From contig JBJEQU010000258.1 of assembly GCA_051881935.1 (NCBI GenBank), forward strand, positions 1 through 35,957: a DNA stretch of 35,957 nt, written 5' to 3'. How positions within the stretch are numbered: the first letter of the stretch is position 1; every line of letters begins with the position of its first letter. The translations under genes and the position numbers were made by a program. Below the pieces are notes generated by a model. It was not told the origin of the DNA and did no database searches. It worked only from the letters and a program-made list of their open reading frames with translations. Positions 4,257 to 24,404 of the stretch are shown in pieces. The DNA comes from Porcipelethomonas sp. (GTDB taxonomy: Bacteria > Bacillota > Clostridia > Oscillospirales > Ruminococcaceae).

Positions 4257-4805
4257 ATGTACAGCAGATGCAACTGTAATCAGACAAAGATAAGAAATGA
4301 AATGAGGAAATTATGGTCACAGCATGTCTACTGGACCCGCATGTTTATAATCAGTACTGTAGAGAAACTAAATGATCTGAGTTTTGTAACAGACCGATTA
4401 CTGGAAAATCCCTCAGATTTCTCAATGGCTTTAAAAATGTTTTATGATGCAAAGACAGCAGACAGATTCGGAAAACTCCTTACCGATCACCTGAAAACAG
4501 GCGGTGATCTGGTTTCCGCACTCAATATGAGAAAAACAGAAAAAGCCGATGCATTAAGAGATCAGTGGTACATGAATGCTGACGAAATTTCCTGTTTTCT
4601 GTCATCAGTCAATCCGAATTGGTGCGAGAAAAATTGGAAGGATATGATGCACCGTCATCTGAGTATGACCGAAAAGGAAGCCGGATTCAGAATCAGCAAA
4701 AATTATCCCAAAGATATCGACACATTCAACGCCATAGAAAAAGAAGCACTTGAAATGGCAGATAATATGCCATCGGGAATAATCAGACAATTTTGCTGCA
4801 AATGA
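4257..4805 (+). CDS. Conserved helical Firmicutes hypothetical protein (family often mislabelled 'acetylglutamate kinase')
   Basis: AGGAGG RBS; LWSQHVYWTR...LLTDHL...WYMNADEI pattern; no kinase motifs. Confidence 0.65.
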   Translation: MYSRCNCNQTKIRNEMRKLWSQHVYWTRMFIISTVEKLNDLSFVTDRLLENPSDFSMALKMFYDAKTADRFGKLLTDHLKTGGDLVSALNMRKTEKADALRDQWYMNADEISCFLSSVNPNWCEKNWKDMMHRHLSMTEKEAGFRISKNYPKDIDTFNAIEKEALEMADNMPSGIIRQFCCK

Positions 4806-4919: not shown

Positions 4920-4987
4920 CCATTTACGTCATGCTGCATGCCAATCACGACAATAGTATTGACTTCTTAGCCTGTATCGTCTATCAT
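4920..4987 (+). promoter_or_regulatory. SigA promoter with tandem LytTR/AgrA-type boxes
   Basis: CCATTTACGTCA (4920) and CCAATCACGACA (4941) are 21 bp apart; TTGACT 4959, 17-bp spacer, TATCAT 4982; same geometry as the agrB promoter. Confidence 0.75.
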
Positions 4988-4993
4988 TTTAAG

Positions 4994-5229
4994 CAGGGGA
5001 TGACTGTAAAGAAGACGAGGGAGAATTTATTTCCTGTCATCTCAACGGCAGCGGTCAATAATATCCCGCAGCCGCAAAATCATAGGTAGAATTCAGATGG
5101 CAATATAAAGACAAATTGCTGAGCCACCGGCACAGCTCCCATGAAAACGGTGGGGATATCAGGTAGAATACCGCACAATTATTAACACCTGTCGCTTTAT
5201 GCAGCATCAGTTAATTGTGTGGTGTTTTT
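4994..5229 (+). ncRNA. Putative agr-regulated structured sRNA
   Basis: Lies between the LytTR-box promoter and an intrinsic terminator; stems 4997-5004/5036-5043 and 5046-5054/5066-5074 plus further hairpins; no ORF with a well-spaced RBS. Confidence 0.6.
5168..5229 (+). terminator. Intrinsic terminator formed by MITE-end-like inverted repeat
   Basis: ATACCGCACAATTA ... TAATTGTGTGGTGT followed by a T-run. Confidence 0.65.
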
Positions 5230-5260
5230 CTGCGTATTTTCACGGTTGTCGGTTAAATTT

Positions 5261-5277
5261 TGTCGAAAAATGTCGAA
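5261..5277 (+). promoter_or_regulatory. Tandem Spo0A 0A boxes
   Basis: TGTCGAA at 5261 and 5271 (consensus TGNCGAA), 10 bp apart, ~60 bp upstream of the -35 of the regulator gene. Confidence 0.55.
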
Positions 5278-5379: not shown

Positions 5380-6102
5380 ATGATGATCAAAATTGCAATA
5401 TGCGATGATGAAGAGATTGCAGTCGAAAAAATCAACAGGATTATAACAGAATGTTTAGCCGGGTCGGACATTTTATGCGAAAACGGCTTATATACAGATC
5501 CGTTGGAGTTTTTATCCGATTTTAAAACCACCAATTTCCAGGCGCTGTTTATCGATCTGGACATGCCGGTCAGATCCGGATTTGAAATATCCGAAGAAAT
5601 AAGAAAAGTAAATAAAATGATCCCGATAATCTATGTCACAAACAGAGATGATCTTGTTTATCAGGCATTCCGGTACAAAGCTATCGGATTTATAAGAAAA
5701 AATCATGCAAAAGAAGAAATTCCCGAAATATTACCCCAGCTGATAGAAGAAATCAAACTGAATGGAAATGAAATATCGATCACAAACTGCGGAAAACTAT
5801 ACCGGATAAAACCCAATGACATAATGTACATAGTCAGCGATGACCATGACCTGCTCTTTCATCTGAAAGATGTCAGCGAGATAATCAGAACACGAGGCAC
5901 AATAAGCTCCTTTGCAAAGTCATACAATTTTTCAAAATTTATTGCTATCAGTGCAGGCTGCTTAGTAAATTACACATATATTTTCTCAATTGAAAATGAC
6001 TGCATTTACTTAAATAATAATGAAAAATTATACATCCCCAGACGGAAAATTAAAATGGTCAAGGAAAGCTTTTTAAAACTGTCAAGAGGAGGATTAATGT
6101 GA
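5380..6102 (+). CDS. agrA: LytTR-family response regulator (AgrA-like)
   Basis: Receiver IAICDD...FIDLDMP...GFIRK; C-terminal LytTR (DIMYI...CLVN); GAGGTG RBS; adjacent to agrB/agrD. Confidence 0.85.
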   Translation: MMIKIAICDDEEIAVEKINRIITECLAGSDILCENGLYTDPLEFLSDFKTTNFQALFIDLDMPVRSGFEISEEIRKVNKMIPIIYVTNRDDLVYQAFRYKAIGFIRKNHAKEEIPEILPQLIEEIKLNGNEISITNCGKLYRIKPNDIMYIVSDDHDLLFHLKDVSEIIRTRGTISSFAKSYNFSKFIAISAGCLVNYTYIFSIENDCIYLNNNEKLYIPRRKIKMVKESFLKLSRGGLM

Positions 6103-7409
6103 TTTACACTATAGCCGAATGGCTCGCCACGATTTCAGAGAGCATAATTATTTTTTTCTTCTTAATTAAGACCCTGTCGTTCAAAGAGATTTCAACTGTA
6201 AAAAAATACACAGTTACCGCCTCTGCTTTTGTTGTTTACAATGTGCTTGTCCTTATGCTTAACTGGTTTTATACGCTGGAGGGTCTGCTGACGATTTTAT
6301 ATCTGGTCGTACTGACCGTGTATTGCAGACTGGTTCTCCGACGAAAGATCTGGCTCCAGTGTATAACGGTTATACTTGTATTTATGTGCATATACATAAT
6401 TAATATAACTGTTTCCCTGCTGGTTTCAAATATATTGGATATCTCAATCGAACAGGTGATTCTGATGAGAAGTCCTCTGCGTGTTTTCCTGCTTATCTTT
6501 ACAAAAATACTGCTCGTAGTTCTCCTTTACATTTTAGAAAACCTTATATCAAGAGGAAAGATGATGTTCAGCACTGTTCAGTGCGTAGCGATTTTTTTAA
6601 TTCTTCTTATCTCATTTATATCAGGAGTCATATTCCAGAAAAACCAGATGGAAAATGATCTTTCAGGTACTAATTCTATTATCATTACAACATGCCTTAT
6701 TCTGATCAACTGCCTTTTGCTGACTGTTATATATCTTATTGCGTCGCAAAACAACGAAAAACTCAAAAATCATCTGCTGAAAATCCAGATAGAAAGCGAA
6801 AAGAAGAATATGGAAGAATCTGTGATCTGGAACAAAAAGGTTGAGGGAATACAGCATGACATGAAAAATCATTTGGGCTGTGTGCTCGATTTGATAAAAA
6901 ACAACCATTATGACCGTGCTGTCAGATATATCGAAAGATTATCCTCAGAAACCAATGAAAATGCCCCAAGCCATATATGCACAAATCATCCTGCGTTAAA
7001 TGCAGTCATCAACCTTAAGAAAAGCCAGTGCTATGAAAAGAAAATCGGATTCAAGTGCTGTATACCGAATGATCTGCCGGATTTTGACGATGTCGATTTA
7101 TGTATAATTTTATCCAATCTGTGCGACAATGCCATCGAAGCCGAATGCAAGGAAGAATTTCCGATGATCATTCTCAATATATCGATAGTTGGCAATTATC
7201 TTAACATAAAGATGAAAAACAGAATTTCAGAATCCGTACTCCAGGAGAATAAAGCCCTCAAAACCACTAAGAAGGACAAGGAGCATCATGGTCTCGGACT
7301 GATGAGTGTTTGTGAGGCAGTACAGAAAAATGACGGTATGCAGGAATTTTATGAGGAGGAAAACTGGTTTGCAGCCAACATTCTCATTAAAATAAATACT
7401 CTTGCGTAG
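6099..7409 (+). CDS. agrC: Membrane GHKL histidine kinase (AgrC-like)
   Basis: ~6 TM N-terminus; H-box HDMKNHL; N-box NLCDNAIEA; G-box TTKKDKEHHGLGL; GTG start overlapping the regulator stop, GGAGG RBS. Confidence 0.88.
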   Translation: MIYTIAEWLATISESIIIFFFLIKTLSFKEISTVKKYTVTASAFVVYNVLVLMLNWFYTLEGLLTILYLVVLTVYCRLVLRRKIWLQCITVILVFMCIYIINITVSLLVSNILDISIEQVILMRSPLRVFLLIFTKILLVVLLYILENLISRGKMMFSTVQCVAIFLILLISFISGVIFQKNQMENDLSGTNSIIITTCLILINCLLLTVIYLIASQNNEKLKNHLLKIQIESEKKNMEESVIWNKKVEGIQHDMKNHLGCVLDLIKNNHYDRAVRYIERLSSETNENAPSHICTNHPALNAVINLKKSQCYEKKIGFKCCIPNDLPDFDDVDLCIILSNLCDNAIEAECKEEFPMIILNISIVGNYLNIKMKNRISESVLQENKALKTTKKDKEHHGLGLMSVCEAVQKNDGMQEFYEEENWFAANILIKINTLA

Positions 7410-7463
7410 CTTTATTTGCGACTGCCCCGCAATCGGCAGGCAAAATGGCATTTTAAATAAAAA

Positions 7464-7506
7464 TATTGCTCCGCCAATTTGGCAAGGTCTAATTGGCGGA
7501 GCAATA
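7464..7506. terminator. 16-bp perfect hairpin after the kinase gene
   Basis: TATTGCTCCGCCAATT / AATTGGCGGAGCAATA. Confidence 0.6.
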
Positions 7507-7544
7507 ATATTTGATTTAACCCATGCAGCAGGAATTGCACGGGT

Positions 7545-7820
7545 CAGACTGTAGAAAAAACTTAATTTTAGGTTAATTAGGGGCAGCCCTCTCTTACAGG
7601 GCATGCCCCTCTTTTCAAACAGTCCACTGGACTGTTTGAAAATTCACCCTGTGCGGAGCGCCTCCAAGGCAAGGTATTTCGCCCTCTGCGGAGGGCGACC
7701 AAGGCTCCGCCTTTGGAAACCGCAAACTTTTTTGCCAAAGGCATGCACAGCAGAAAAAAGTTTGATCAAAAACTTTAATGTTGCTATCCGCATACTTAAA
7801 ATAACTTTTTCGACAAACTG
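7545..7820. mobile_element. Non-autonomous MITE with IS1182-like ends, inserted in a duplicated palindrome
   Basis: Left end CAGACTGTAGAAAAA, right end reverse complement CAGTTTGTCGAAAAA; flanks 7519-7544 and 7821-7848 are near-identical palindromes; internal hairpins; no transposase. Confidence 0.7.
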
Positions 7821-7863
7821 ACCCGTGCAGCAGGAATTCTGCACGGGTTTTTTACATAAATGA

Positions 7864-7931
7864 CCAATTACGTCATCTCACTATCCATTTACGACAAAGC
7901 CATTGACTCATGGTAATTATATTGGTATAAT
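7864..7931 (+). promoter_or_regulatory. agrB promoter with tandem LytTR/AgrA-type boxes
   Basis: CCAATTACGTCA (7864) and CCATTTACGACA (7885) are 21 bp apart; TTGACT 7903-17-TATAAT 7926 with TG extension. Confidence 0.8.
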
Positions 7932-7954: not shown

Positions 7955-8539
7955 ATGATAACGAGAATAGCCAATAAAATAACCTGCAGCCTGAACAGGA
8001 ACAACATAATTTCCGCTGAAGACAGGGATATATACGTTTATGGACTTGAAATATTCTTTTCTACACTGATAACGATCGCTATCGTTATCAGCTTCGGAAT
8101 CATAATGAACTGCCTTCCGGCGTCACTGATATATTTTGCAGTATTTGCCGTATCAAGACAAATATGCGGCGGATATCATGCGGATACATATTTTAAGTGC
8201 AACACGATCTTTGCTATAACAACATTTCTTGCTCTGTCTGCGTATAAATACGCTCCGGTGGAGATAGAAGGTTCACTGCACTATATGATAATGACATTCT
8301 GGATAATGTCCGTATTTAATTTTGCCCCGGTAGAGAATGAAAGCAAACCCATCAGCAGTGACAGAAGAAAAAAACTCAGGGTAATCAGCCGGGGAATGTG
8401 CATACTCATGGCGCTTGTATCATGCATGATATATATTTTCAGGCTGCAGTATACTGTTTTGCTCGATGCGACAATATTTTTTGTTGCGTTTGCAATAGTT
8501 ATTTCCGGTCTGCAGCAAAAGGACAGCGAAAAAAAATGA
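7955..8539 (+). CDS. agrB: Accessory gene regulator B (AIP-processing membrane peptidase)
   Basis: YVYGLE, RQICGGYHA...C and FAPVENESKP motifs; multiple TM segments. Confidence 0.92.
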   Translation: MITRIANKITCSLNRNNIISAEDRDIYVYGLEIFFSTLITIAIVISFGIIMNCLPASLIYFAVFAVSRQICGGYHADTYFKCNTIFAITTFLALSAYKYAPVEIEGSLHYMIMTFWIMSVFNFAPVENESKPISSDRRKKLRVISRGMCILMALVSCMIYIFRLQYTVLLDATIFFVAFAIVISGLQQKDSEKK

Positions 8540-8598
8540 AAGCATGTCCCTGAAACTGTATCCGGAGATCAGGACAACTTCTTCAATTAATCTGCTCA

Positions 8599-8707
8599 GC
8601 TATTCAGCAGGGTCTGGTGTCTGTACACCTGATCCCTGCATGATATAGATATATATGATCCGTAAATCGGACAAAGAGAAAGGAAGTGACGAAAATGAAA
8701 AAGACAG
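8599..8707 (+). repeat. 109-bp direct repeat, copy 1 (agrD leader hairpin, RBS and first four codons)
   Basis: Identical to 9598-9706 by manual comparison. Confidence 0.95.
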
Positions 8708-8781
8708 CTTCAACAAGAGCTTATATTAATAGCTTTGTTTATGCATATAACAATTCACAACTCGAAACTTTTGAAAGATGA
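8695..8781 (+). CDS. 28-aa chimeric mini-ORF starting with the duplicated agrD start (MKKTASTRAYINSFVYAYNNSQLETFER)
   Basis: Uses the duplicated AAAGGAAG RBS and ATG; its TGA overlaps the RBS of the next gene. Confidence 0.4.
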   Translation: MKKTASTRAYINSFVYAYNNSQLETFER

Positions 8782-8791
8782 AGGTGATCTT

Positions 8792-9589
8792 ATGAAAATG
8801 TACAAAATGCTTTCATTCTTGTTTTCCACTGCAGCGGCCCTATTAATGCTCGAAGGAGTTTCTGTAAATGCGGATGAGTCGGGTTCGGGTGAAAAAAAGC
8901 TGTATTCCTTTGCCGAACTCATGGAAATGAATGATGAAGATTTTTTGAAGCTTGACAAACATGCAACAGACTTATTCTATGATTATCAAGGATATGTTTC
9001 CAATCACAGCTCGGAGGAAGATCGGTTATTGTTCAGTCTGATTAAGCCATCATGGTTAGGTGCTGACAATAATTATATTCCTTACAAAACTGAAAAAGAA
9101 ATTTTATCGTTGTTTGAGGGATATAATTTAGTAATTGAATCTCCTGTCTGGACAAAAAAATCTGTAGACTCTACTACATATTGCCCATACTTTGATTTCC
9201 TTGAAGTGTATATTGGGAATACAACTGTTGATGGTCTTATAGAAATAAAAGAAAAAAGTAATTTGGCTAACCTGACCAAATCGGATATCATGGAATTTGT
9301 TAAATTTGAGTATTGCGTTGATCAGGCAATTGATATGATTTATAACGATCCTGATCTTGACTGGTCAACGGGAAATTCCATAAAATACGGTGATGTAAAC
9401 GATGATGGAATACTGAATGTCAGAGACTGCTCCTATATTGCCACTTGTCTTGCTTCCAAAGAAACGGATAAGCTAAATGACACCGCTGACTTTAACTGTG
9501 ACGGCGAGAAAAATATCCGTGATGCTGCAAAAATGGCACAGTTTATTTTGGGCAGAGATATGTCTCAGCAGGAAAACTTTTCGGTTTAA
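8792..9589 (+). CDS. Secreted protein with C-terminal dockerin; N-terminal domain unknown
   Basis: GAAGGTGA RBS; signal peptide ending VNA; GDVNDDGILNVRDC...ADFNCDGEKNIRDAA duplicated Ca-binding loops. Confidence 0.85.
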   Translation: MKMYKMLSFLFSTAAALLMLEGVSVNADESGSGEKKLYSFAELMEMNDEDFLKLDKHATDLFYDYQGYVSNHSSEEDRLLFSLIKPSWLGADNNYIPYKTEKEILSLFEGYNLVIESPVWTKKSVDSTTYCPYFDFLEVYIGNTTVDGLIEIKEKSNLANLTKSDIMEFVKFEYCVDQAIDMIYNDPDLDWSTGNSIKYGDVNDDGILNVRDCSYIATCLASKETDKLNDTADFNCDGEKNIRDAAKMAQFILGRDMSQQENFSV

Positions 9590-9597
9590 ACTATCCT

Positions 9598-9706
9598 GCT
9601 ATTCAGCAGGGTCTGGTGTCTGTACACCTGATCCCTGCATGATATAGATATATATGATCCGTAAATCGGACAAAGAGAAAGGAAGTGACGAAAATGAAAA
9701 AGACAG
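9598..9706 (+). repeat. 109-bp direct repeat, copy 2
   Basis: Identical to 8599-8707, offset 999 bp. Confidence 0.95.
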
Positions 9707-9828
9707 TAAAGGCAAACGTTCTCGGTGCAGTTGCTAAGATTGCAAGAAAGAGCGCTTCTGCAGGTGCTTCTTCAGCTTCTGTTTTAGGCTTTCATCAGCC
9801 AAAGGAGCCAAAGGCACTGAAAAAGTAA
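9694..9828 (+). CDS. agrD: Cyclic lactone autoinducer precursor AgrD, 44 aa (MKKTVKANVLGAVAKIARKSASAGASSASVLGFHQPKEPKALKK)
   Basis: Manual translation (below the ORF-track cutoff); amphipathic leader and HQPKEPK tail typical of clostridial AgrD; downstream of agrB. Confidence 0.92.
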   Translation: MKKTVKANVLGAVAKIARKSASAGASSASVLGFHQPKEPKALKK

Positions 9829-9840
9829 TTTTCAGAAAAT

Positions 9841-9962
9841 GGACATGCTTCGTTAAAAAATGGAGGTATTGAAGCAGTCCGCAAAAACGGTACATAAGAA
9901 CCTGTCCGCCGAAAGATACGGACAGGTTCGGTGTTACCGCAAAATCACAGGTAGATGCAGAT
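9841..9962 (+). ncRNA. Structured agrD 3' trailer related to the 4994-5229 RNA
   Basis: Stems 9841-9852/9870-9880 and 9888-9939, followed by CAAAATCACAGGTAGA. Confidence 0.45.
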
Positions 9963-9991
9963 ATTAAACAAACATAAAGAAAGAAAAAACT

Positions 9992-10035
9992 AAAAAAGCT
10001 TTGACGCTGATCAGATTCAGAGTCAAAGCTTTTTT
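9992..10035. terminator. Bidirectional intrinsic terminator between agrD and ilvE
   Basis: AAAAAAGCTTTGAC ... GTCAAAGCTTTTTT. Confidence 0.85.
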
Positions 10036-10060
10036 ATTTCACAGTCATATACGATATGAC

Positions 10061-11537: not shown

Positions 11538-11752
11538 AGAAAATCTGTTTCCCGGTGACGGTGCAGACGGTTTTCTGAAAGCATTTGTGAAAGTGTCAGC
11601 GGTTCCTTTCCGAACCGTAACAATTCCGAAATATAGGTGTGCGGGCCCTGTGCAATGGATCACCGTGAACCATGTCAGGCGGGGAACCGAGCAGCATTAA
11701 GCGGATCGTTCTGTGTGCCGCAGCAAGCCTGCACACCTATGTTCCGGAATTT
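11538..11752 (+). ncRNA. ffs: Signal recognition particle RNA (large type with 5' extension)
   Basis: Helix-8-like GTCAGGCGGGGAACCGAGCAGC; long stem AATTCCG..ATAGGTGTGCGGGC / GCCTGCACACCTAT..CGGAATT; canonical position upstream of dnaX; ends approximate. Confidence 0.9.
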
Positions 11753-23505: not shown

Positions 23506-24404
23506 TTATTCAGTTATTTTACCGGCAAGCTTATAAGCAAGTGCTGCCGCATCTCTTATATTGATCTTTCCGTCGCCGTTAAAATCAGCCGTTTCCGGAA
23601 GCTCCTGACTCCTTCCCTCTGCAAGCATTTGAGCAATGAACGCACAGTCACGGACAGTATACTCTTCCGTCTGTTCCTGTTCCGGGTCGGATACTGTTAT
23701 TGAAACGGTGGTGGATGTCGTTTCCGGAGAAGTTGTTACAGGGGCAGTTGTTGTGATCTCAGGCTCTTCAAAATATTGTTTAGTTGCCGAGACAGATGTC
23801 CTGCTAACATGCATACCATACTCCTTATACAAACTTAAAAAAGCCGAGACTATATCTTCTTCAGTTGCATCTTCATCGTAACAGATATGAAAATTCTCAT
23901 TGCCATCATCTTCATATGGTTCGAAATGTGCCTTCATATTTTTCTCATCGAGAAAATCATTCAGTTCATCAACAGAATGATTCTTATAGAACATTTCATC
24001 TGTAGAATAAACCCTGTTCCAGGTTATAATAACACCGACAAGAACTCTGGCTTTTTTCAGATCTGGCTTTACCTCCTCTTCCTCATCAAATATATATTCT
24101 CTGGACAAGAGTCCAATATCATTAGGGGTTATGAATTCATCGGTATGATAAGAGTAAACATGCTTTAATTCTACAGCATCATAACCGTCAAAGTTAACCG
24201 TATTATCATTAATATACTCAACGAATTCCTGCTCATAGGGAAGTACATGGTCTAAAGAATTCACCAATTCCCTGTTTTCCTGATTATTAAAATCACAGGT
24301 AGGCATCGACGATCCCGACGCAGAAGCAGAAACGCCTAAAACCACAGACGATAGTAACAGTAAGTTAAGTATCACACTGCCTAATGTTTTTTGATTTTTT
24401 TCAT
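23506..24404 (-). CDS. Secreted protein with Thr-rich linker and degenerate dockerin; ATG 24404 is out of frame by one base in an A7 tract (intact frame from GTG 24375)
   Basis: TVRDCAFIA...ADFNGDGKINIRDAA; GGAG-ATG then AAAAAAA; adding one A gives MKKNQKTLGSVILNLLLL. Confidence 0.75.

What the first reader, a model, noticed from the sequence alone, without database searches (positions are those of the whole stretch)
9841..9962. agrD 3' trailer and the upstream sRNA share motif and architecture
Seen: CCGCAAAATCATAGGTAGA (5072-5090) vs CCGCAAAATCACAGGTAGA (9937-9955), 18/19 identical, each followed shortly by CAGAT. In both, the motif follows hairpin 1, an A-rich linker, and hairpin 2 opening CGG and closing CCG, while the stem sequences differ. 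AGGTAGAAT recurs at 5161. Inference: both LytTR-box transcripts carry the same RNA module, either a seed for shared mRNA targets or a protein-binding site, i.e. a two-copy RNA output of this agr system.
Basis: partly seen in the sequence, partly recalled or inferred. Interest (0 to 1): 0.82.

Follow-up and report, generated by a model that had tools for sequence, protein, structure and literature searches.

The report
Quorum-driven RNA decoy for sporulation repressor
Two RNAs predicted to be switched on by this bacterium's quorum-sensing (agr) genes share a 19-letter stretch that is complementary to a third, predicted small RNA that likely blocks the sporulation master gene spo0A, so they would act as decoys that let crowded cells start to sporulate; this is untested, and the motif was seen only in this narrow lineage.

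Summary
The 18/19 match is real (0 of 100 shuffles), but it is not a widespread RNA module. It was not found at other agr loci of the genus or family. A close pig-gut relative keeps only the core and lacks hairpin 1 and the CAGAT tail. No compensatory change was seen.

The new lead lies on another contig. G000 C206:3813-3992 folds like a trans-acting sRNA (z -7.5), with a promoter, an anti-Shine-Dalgarno loop and a terminator. Its single-stranded linker pairs over 18 bases with the upstream copy and over 16 of 17 with the trailer copy. A twin this long is expected 0.002-0.004 times by a Markov model and occurs for 1% of sampled noncoding 19-mers. The best predicted mRNA target of this 'sRNA-X' is spo0A (rank 1 of 1955), and the agr motif resembles the spo0A start region.

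Best reading: the AgrA-driven upstream RNA, and more weakly the agrD trailer, sponge a spo0A repressor (about 35%; about 50% that the pairing is real). Main rival: a functionless relic of a local duplication. The pairing and target claims are computed; sRNA-X has no detected homologue, and transcription is unshown.

The parts
4920..4952 (+). Pair of 12-bp LytTR-type direct repeats (21-bp period), likely AgrA boxes
   Evidence: the same pair occurs at 7864 and at two other places in the genome; period equals the RgaR repeat spacing (-51/-72) in PMC10602386
4959..4987 (+). Sigma70-type promoter (TTGACT, 17 nt, TATCAT) of the upstream RNA
4994..5235 (+). Predicted upstream noncoding RNA (about 240 nt; ends inferred): hairpins 4997-5043 and 5046-5074, motif, terminal hairpin
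   Evidence: z -2.9; terminal hairpin not called by the terminator scan; no Rfam match
5072..5090 (+). Motif copy 1 (T form); 5074-5091 pairs over 18 bases with sRNA-X
5161..5169 (+). Partial second copy AGGTAGAAT at the base of the terminal hairpin; its first 8 letters also stand in the spo0A ribosome-binding region
5261..5277 (+). Two TGTCGAA heptamers upstream of the agrA promoter, Spo0A-box-like (consensus recalled)
   Evidence: a tandem pair occurs at 4 places in the genome
5380..6102 (+). AgrA-like LytTR response regulator
   Evidence: PF00072 + PF04397
6099..7409 (+). AgrC-like GHKL histidine kinase
   Evidence: PF14501
7864..7931 (+). LytTR-type repeats and promoter of agrB-dockerin-agrD
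7955..8539 (+). agrB
   Evidence: PF04647
8570..8707 (+). 138-nt duplicate of 9569-9706, ending in a stub of agrD
8735..9589 (+). Dockerin-bearing protein gene between agrB and agrD
   Evidence: PF00404; agrB joins agrD directly in relatives' contigs X1, X2, X4
9685..9828 (+). agrD (AIP precursor)
   Evidence: TIGR04223 above cut-off
9841..9880 (+). Trailer hairpin 1, GGAGGU in the loop; absent in the close relative
9888..9939 (+). Trailer hairpin 2; inner stem unchanged in X1 and X4, one stem change in X7 that could form a wobble pair
9937..9955 (+). Motif copy 2 (C form); 16 of 17 bases pair with sRNA-X, one central mismatch
9988..10039 (.). Long inverted repeat between agrD trailer and ilvE, likely a two-way terminator

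Best explanation
The shared 19-mer is complementary to the linker of a third, predicted small RNA (sRNA-X, G000 C206:3813-3992, + strand) and likely works as a decoy site: the likely AgrA-driven upstream RNA, and more weakly the agrD trailer, would bind sRNA-X and free its predicted target, the spo0A mRNA, so that quorum sensing would favour sporulation. Shown by sequence and calls: the two copies, the LytTR-type repeats and promoters, the agr genes, the complementarity, and the presence of hfq and spo0A in the genome. Predicted: the folds, the transcription of all three RNAs, the sRNA-X/spo0A duplex over the Shine-Dalgarno sequence and codons 2-7, and the binding energies. Inferred: activation by AgrA at high density, the direction of control (sponge rather than target), and the effect on sporulation. 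The upstream RNA probably arose from a duplicated agrBD transcription unit that lost its coding part.
For: (1) At up to 3 mismatches the 19-mer has one further match in the genome, at C206 in the complementary orientation to sRNA-X. Expected number of such noncoding 16-mer twins: 0.002-0.004 (Markov orders 2-5); empirically 307 of 30000 noncoding 19-mers. (2) The match falls in the 35-nt unpaired linker of an element that starts just behind a promoter whose sequence is kept in relatives, ends in an intrinsic terminator with a U run, carries an ACCUCC loop and folds at z -7.5. (3) It is the longest non-self helix of copy 1 in the genome (18 bp; next 17). Full-length binding: -24.4 (upstream RNA), -16.9 (trailer), -20.3 (spo0A) kcal/mol; 0 of 300 linker shuffles reach either agr value. 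(4) The letters shared by both copies beyond the CCG stem arm are those that pair with sRNA-X. The close relative's trailer has the T form and, by my reading of the alignment, further A letters after the core, which would pair better. (5) spo0A (TIGR02875 above cut-off) ranks 1 of 1955 start regions for linker plus hairpin (-22.2; next -19.8; median -6.7) and 5 of 1967 for the linker alone, where 0 of 25 shuffles rank 5 or better. This genome's spo0A binds best of 11 orthologues (next -21.6). (6) Hfq is encoded. (7) Precedent: in C. difficile RgaR drives agrB1D1 plus the sRNA SpoZ, and one RIL-seq partner of SpoZ is another sRNA (PMC10602386, section 13); SpoY blocks the spo0A RBS (PMC10267692, sections 9, 13).
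Against: (1) No expression or binding data; one RNA-run contig (X4) spans agrD into the motif but contigs cannot show strand or transcription, and the upstream RNA had no cover in X1, X2 or X4. (2) sRNA-X has no detected homologue: 0 of 21 genus genomes beyond its promoter, 8 of 400 family genomes with weak hits that proved unrelated, 1 of 60 by a one-sequence model at E 0.04, not examined, and it is missing at the same site in 18 of 18 relatives. Co-variation of the pair could therefore not be tested. (3) spo0A is sticky for anti-SD, U-rich sequence: with the hairpin kept, shuffled linkers average -17.4 and 16 of 300 reach -22.2; sRNA-X is only 6th of 106 ACCTCC-bearing noncoding windows, most of the top ones looking like reverse strands of ribosome-binding sites. 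(4) The trailer copy has a central mismatch; C206 is not among its ten longest helices, and it binds more weakly than spo0A. (5) Scored on the weaker of both copies, two coding sites rank above sRNA-X. (6) Keeping 13 of 14 core letters in a region about 80% identical is not significant by itself (about 0.2, my estimate). (7) In the full-length fold part of copy 1 pairs with the RNA's own 3' tail. (8) The partner was found after the fact, in a search of several ideas.
Confidence: 0.35

Rival explanations
1. Duplication relic. The upstream RNA is a decayed copy of the agrBD transcription unit, the 19-mer is the best-preserved leftover, and the C206 match is chance.
For: The locus duplicates and rearranges (138-nt duplicate; alleles with and without the dockerin gene behind agrD). 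The 5' end of the upstream RNA resembles the agrB 5' end (36 of 2000 shuffles) and the hairpin-2 arms are weakly alike (44 of 2000). The motif was not found at other agr loci. 1% of noncoding 19-mers have a distant 16-mer twin.
Against: Drift should not leave 18/19 identity in an unpaired stretch while the regions before it fall to background. The kept letters coincide with the complement of a well-formed sRNA linker.
Confidence: 0.25
2. The pairing with sRNA-X is real but the logic differs: sRNA-X marks the agr RNAs for cleavage or decay, or its main targets are other mRNAs.
For: Same complementarity evidence. A site in the 3' trailer of agrBD could set mRNA stability. Other start regions with AGGTAG or GGTAGA exist, 19 of 2058 called genes, among them fliS. 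The spo0A rank is partly generic.
Against: The agr coding starts rank poorly as targets (681, 1422, 1530 and 1751 of 1955). The upstream RNA has no convincing reading frame to silence, which fits a decoy better.
Confidence: 0.15
3. One reading: both RNAs use the motif to pair with shared mRNA targets.
For: One outlier among 1963 start regions: the dockerin gene at window 23506-24403 (-) has a 14-base site (24290-24303) with G opposite the C/T position, so both forms pair (-19.6 and -23.0; next -14 and -16).
Against: That site lies about 100 nt inside the coding region (my gene caller took an internal ATG), the gene looks frameshifted near its start, binding of the motif drops to -14.2 and -18.2 in fuller context, and several coding sites score alike. 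The motif is SD-like, not anti-SD.
Confidence: 0.1
4. Protein-binding or processing site (CsrA, Hfq or a ribonuclease) next to a stem.
For: CsrA and Hfq are encoded. The trailer has 3 ANGGA, one in the loop of hairpin 1. The motif is unpaired or weakly paired and follows a stem.
Against: The motif has no GGA; each RNA has only 3 GGA. A 17-base exact requirement is longer than these proteins are known to need (recalled).
Confidence: 0.1
5. DNA-level element: direct repeats that bound the agrACB-dockerin-agrD block (insertion or recombination site), or an operator.
For: The two copies are direct repeats 4865 bp apart around the whole gene block. sRNA-X is itself a lineage-specific insertion at a promoter.
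Against: The LytTR-box promoter lies outside the repeats. No integrase was seen among the flanking proteins scanned. The motif is not palindromic and not placed at a promoter.
Confidence: 0.05

Closest known systems
C. difficile RgaS-RgaR / agrB1D1 / SpoZ (PMC10602386; abstract, sections 10 and 13, passages read)
   Same: A two-component regulator with direct-repeat boxes 21 nt apart drives agrBD and a separate sRNA; the output is sporulation; one SpoZ partner in RIL-seq is another sRNA.
   Different: SpoZ is about 560 nt and antisense to a small ORF; the kinase and regulator are orphans. Here agrAC lie beside agrBD, the RNA is about 240 nt, and the same site is repeated in the agrD trailer. 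No sequence homology was tested.
C. difficile SpoY and SpoX (PMC10267692; section 9, part 1 of section 13, passages read)
   Same: SpoY is an Hfq-associated sRNA that blocks the spo0A RBS, as predicted for sRNA-X; SpoX is discussed as a possible sponge.
   Different: No agr link is described in the parts read (one 'agr' hit in the text, not shown to me). sRNA-X is predicted to cover the SD and codons 2-7. Sequence homology was not tested.
RNA sponges QrrX (V. cholerae, PMC9732341) and RosA (B. subtilis, PMC8216469); abstracts only
   Same: A transcription-factor-controlled RNA pairs with and inactivates sRNAs; QrrX acts within quorum sensing.
   Different: QrrX is driven by a LysR regulator and targets the Qrr sRNAs; RosA is CcpA-repressed and targets RoxS and FsrA. 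Neither abstract mentions agr or spo0A.
S. aureus RNAIII and C. perfringens VR-RNA, VirT, VirU (named in PMC10602386 section 13; details recalled)
   Same: RNA output of an Agr or Vir two-component system.
   Different: These act directly on mRNAs; the motif here is SD-like and points to an sRNA partner.

Membership tests
agr quorum-sensing locus | LytTR response regulator and GHKL kinase | tested here: met
   (NF046049 AgrA model only below cut-off)
agr quorum-sensing locus | AgrB and AgrD | tested here: met
   PF04647; TIGR04223 above cut-off
agr quorum-sensing locus | Direct-repeat boxes before the agrBD promoter | tested here: met
   binding by this AgrA not tested
agr quorum-sensing locus | The AIP activates the adjacent kinase | not testable with these tools
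   not true of RgaS in C. difficile
Agr/Vir/Rga effector sRNA | Noncoding RNA behind regulator boxes | tested here: inconclusive
   boxes, promoter and fold present; a 29-codon frame starts about 6 nt after the predicted start; transcription unshown
RNA sponge | Pairs with the target-binding region of an sRNA | tested here: met
   in silico only: the same linker pairs with the motif and with spo0A
RNA sponge | Binds at least as well as the mRNA target | tested here: inconclusive
   upstream RNA -24.4 and trailer -16.9 against spo0A -20.3
RNA sponge | Relieves repression in cells, co-expressed at fitting levels | not testable with these tools
   no raw reads available
SpoY-like spo0A repressor (sRNA-X) | Pairs with the spo0A RBS | tested here: inconclusive
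   rank 1 of 1955, but 16 of 300 linker shuffles do as well and 6th of 106 controls
CsrB/RsmZ-type protein-titrating RNA | Many GGA motifs in loops | tested here: not met
   3 GGA in 244 nt and 3 in 212 nt
Any Rfam family | Score at or above gathering threshold | tested here: not met
   only SRP RNA at 11639-11737 passes

The most novel reading that the evidence does not exclude
An agr system promotes sporulation by a double negative made only of RNA: AgrA transcribes two decoys, a free RNA and the 3' trailer of the pheromone mRNA itself, that mimic the spo0A start region and titrate a recently acquired spo0A-repressing sRNA, with Spo0A boxes before agrAC closing a feedback loop.
Probability: 0.25. 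Interest if true: 0.85.

Novelty: new variant of a known kind. Interest (0 to 1): 0.6.

Why it matters
How agr signalling promotes sporulation in clostridia is open: PMC10602386 (section 13) says the peptide acts through an unknown factor. A sponge against a spo0A repressor would be a direct and cheaply testable link, and a decoy site in the 3' trailer of the pheromone mRNA would couple signal production to the response. It would also show a three-RNA circuit arising within one lineage. The narrow distribution limits how general it can be.

Tried and rejected
Rfam: no family for either agr RNA, sRNA-X or the C131 RNA.

Exact 19-mer in the GTDB collection: 3 hits, all overlapping long ORFs of unrelated organisms. 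Family scan: 15 of 200 genomes match at up to 2 mismatches, but 18 of 18 sites overlap long ORFs, three of them response-regulator genes. Core at 1 mismatch in 5 genus genomes: 9 of 9 sites overlap long ORFs.

agrB loci: 29 further loci were scanned (1500-nt flanks; 30 of 52 matches fetched, one being the window's own); four had only 5-mismatch hits, and none of the 11 printed agrD trailers has the motif. G191 (AgrA 41%, AgrD 64%, same boxes) lacks it upstream of agrA and behind agrD. G005 (AgrA 46%) has a coding gene upstream of agrA, and no AgrD was found with this query. The upstream RNA had no match in 5 of 5 genomes. The whole-locus DNA search returned, apart from the self match, only a dispersed repeat among the listed rows, with 59 rows unlisted. 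The metagenome scan gave 5 distant AgrA loci (25-32%), not examined further. Genus of G352: 0 of 27 at E 1e-36. Viral contigs: 0 for the sRNA-X linker.

A small-peptide reading was rejected: the C/T change is silent in one frame, but the trailer has no usable start and the relative shifts that frame. The C131 RNA and C139 leader do not bind sRNA-X (-2.8, -7.0). A pattern search for an anti-spo0A sRNA in 5 relatives gave 6 hits: 4 were the reverse strand of spo0A, 2 were not examined. Lack of cover of the upstream RNA in X1, X2 and X4 proves nothing. Three look-ups of earlier findings returned nothing.

Full report
Observation. The two 19-mers are at 5072-5090 and 9937-9955 on the + strand with one C/T difference. 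They exceed chance: 0 of 100 window shuffles give two matches, shuffled pairs of the two regions never pass 16/19 in 2000 trials, and 1 of 3000 random genome pairs reaches 18 or more. Each copy begins on the 3' arm of a CGG...CCG hairpin. The wider architecture is weaker than described: the linker between the hairpins is 2 nt upstream and 7 nt in the trailer, the regions before the motif are not alike beyond chance, and the CAGAT flank is not significant.

The locus. It reads LytTR regulator (5380-6102), GHKL kinase (6099-7409), a dispersed repeat (7536-7829), agrB (7955-8539), a dockerin gene (8735-9589), agrD (9685-9828) and a long inverted repeat facing ilvE. Paired 12-bp repeats with a 21-bp period precede a -35 at 4920 and 7864 and at two other places in the genome: C131 (no long ORF behind it) and C139 (dockerin genes). 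The same spacing is reported for RgaR boxes. So two transcripts carry the motif: a predicted RNA of about 240 nt upstream of agrA, and the 3' trailer of the agrB-dockerin-agrD mRNA. No call named the organism; many dockerin genes suggest a Ruminococcus-like species (my inference).

Distribution. The motif was not found at other agr loci: none of 11 printed agrD trailers in relatives, not in G191, whose AgrD is 64% identical and whose box is the same, and not upstream of the closest AgrA in the genus. Hits in the family and in GTDB overlap long ORFs. The only comparative data come from contigs of pig-gut runs that hold a close relative. There agrB joins agrD directly, hairpin 1 is absent, the inner stem of hairpin 2 is unchanged (X1, X4), CCGC is altered and the CAGAT tail is lost (X1), and the core is kept in the T form of the upstream copy. 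No compensatory change was seen. Keeping 13 of 14 letters in a region about 80% identical is only weak evidence of selection.

A partner. In its own genome the 19-mer has one more match at up to 3 mismatches, at C206:3890-3906. On the + strand this is the complement of window 5075-5091. It lies in a 180-nt element that starts just behind a promoter, folds into a three-way 5' domain, a 35-nt unpaired linker, a hairpin with an ACCUCC loop and an intrinsic terminator, at z -7.5. I call it sRNA-X. The promoter is shared with relatives, where it drives a VanY-type gene directly; 18 of 18 relatives lack the element there, and no homologue was found by BLAST or by a one-sequence model. The expected number of such 16-mer twins is 0.002-0.004 by Markov models and 307 of 30000 empirically, a figure that appears to include real short repeats. 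The helix with copy 1 is 18 bp, the longest non-self helix in the genome; copy 2 has a central mismatch. Binding is -24.4 and -16.9 kcal/mol for the full RNAs.

What sRNA-X would do. Folded against the start regions of 1955 crudely called genes, linker plus hairpin binds spo0A best (-22.2; next -19.8), covering the Shine-Dalgarno sequence and codons 2-7. The linker alone ranks spo0A 5 of 1967, against a median of 151 for 25 shuffles. The agr motif therefore looks like the spo0A start region, which is what a decoy should look like. The controls temper this: spo0A is sticky for anti-SD, U-rich sequence, 16 of 300 linker shuffles bind as well, and sRNA-X is 6th of 106 ACCTCC-bearing windows. Hfq is encoded. 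Two Spo0A-box-like heptamers (consensus recalled) lie before the agrA promoter.

Mechanism. Most likely sRNA-X holds spo0A translation down during growth; at high density AgrA transcribes the upstream RNA and agrBD; the motif captures the linker of sRNA-X and frees spo0A. The upstream RNA is predicted to outcompete spo0A (-24.4 against -20.3); the trailer copy is not (-16.9). The complementarity is shown; folds, transcription and energies are predicted; direction and outcome are inferred. The upstream RNA probably began as a duplicate of the agrBD unit, since its 5' end resembles that of agrB (36 of 2000 shuffles) and the locus duplicates readily. Origin by duplication and retention by selection are compatible. 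I give the full sponge model 0.35 and a real pairing of either direction about 0.5.

Results against. A functionless relic remains plausible (0.25).

Known systems. The closest is C. difficile RgaSR, which drives agrB1D1 and the sRNA SpoZ and promotes sporulation by partly unknown routes (PMC10602386: abstract, sections 10 and 13, passages). SpoY represses spo0A at its RBS (PMC10267692: section 9, first part of section 13, passages). QrrX and RosA are proven sponges (PMC9732341, PMC8216469: abstracts). Eight library searches were answered; in the listings and parts read I saw no agr-driven sponge of a spo0A-repressing sRNA. The library lacks most subscription papers, and I read no supplements; the RIL-seq tables of PMC10267692 could show whether SpoZ partners include a spo0A repressor.

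Verdict. A real but lineage-restricted RNA motif with a specific, testable partner hypothesis: new variant of a known kind, interest 0.6.

Noticed in passing
G000 C131:6553 (-), L149: A third LytTR-box promoter drives a candidate noncoding RNA of about 130 nt ending in a long hairpin; no Rfam match, no binding to sRNA-X.
   Followed up: partly
G000 C139:8756 (-): A fourth LytTR-box promoter precedes a gene fragment and tandem dockerin genes; similar boxes precede secreted-protein genes in G002 and G005.
   Followed up: partly
window 8570-9706; runs X1-X5, X7: The dockerin gene behaves like a movable cassette: between agrB and agrD here with a 138-nt duplicate, behind agrD in some contigs of the relative, absent from that position in others. 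It is 97-98% identical to the relative's while agrB is about 83%, which suggests a mosaic locus.
   Followed up: partly
window 7536-7829: A repeat of about 290 bp with 24-nt terminal inverted arms (MITE-like), many copies in this genome and across the genus; a second small palindromic repeat at about 7415-7511.
   Followed up: partly
window 23506-24403 (-): Dockerin gene whose likely start (ATG 24403 behind an SD) is out of frame with the rest after an A run: a frameshift or an assembly slip.
   Followed up: partly
L178, L181-L185, L191-L195: The spo0A ribosome-binding region GGAGGTAGA is kept in 11 of 11 genomes read; fliS in G000 has the same letters.
   Followed up: partly
G000 C206:3813-3992 (L147:2514-2693): sRNA-X sits at the start site of a promoter that drives a VanY-type gene in 18 relatives; its terminator could attenuate that gene.
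   Followed up: partly
window 4257-4805 (+): 182-aa ORF with no Pfam or NCBIfam hit directly upstream of the LytTR boxes.
   Followed up: no
window 11639-11737 (+): Small SRP RNA upstream of dnaX.
   Followed up: no
genus genomes G008, G012, G018: Six or seven agrB matches per genome; in the loci read, agrD is usually followed by a hairpin and a secreted-protein gene.
   Followed up: no
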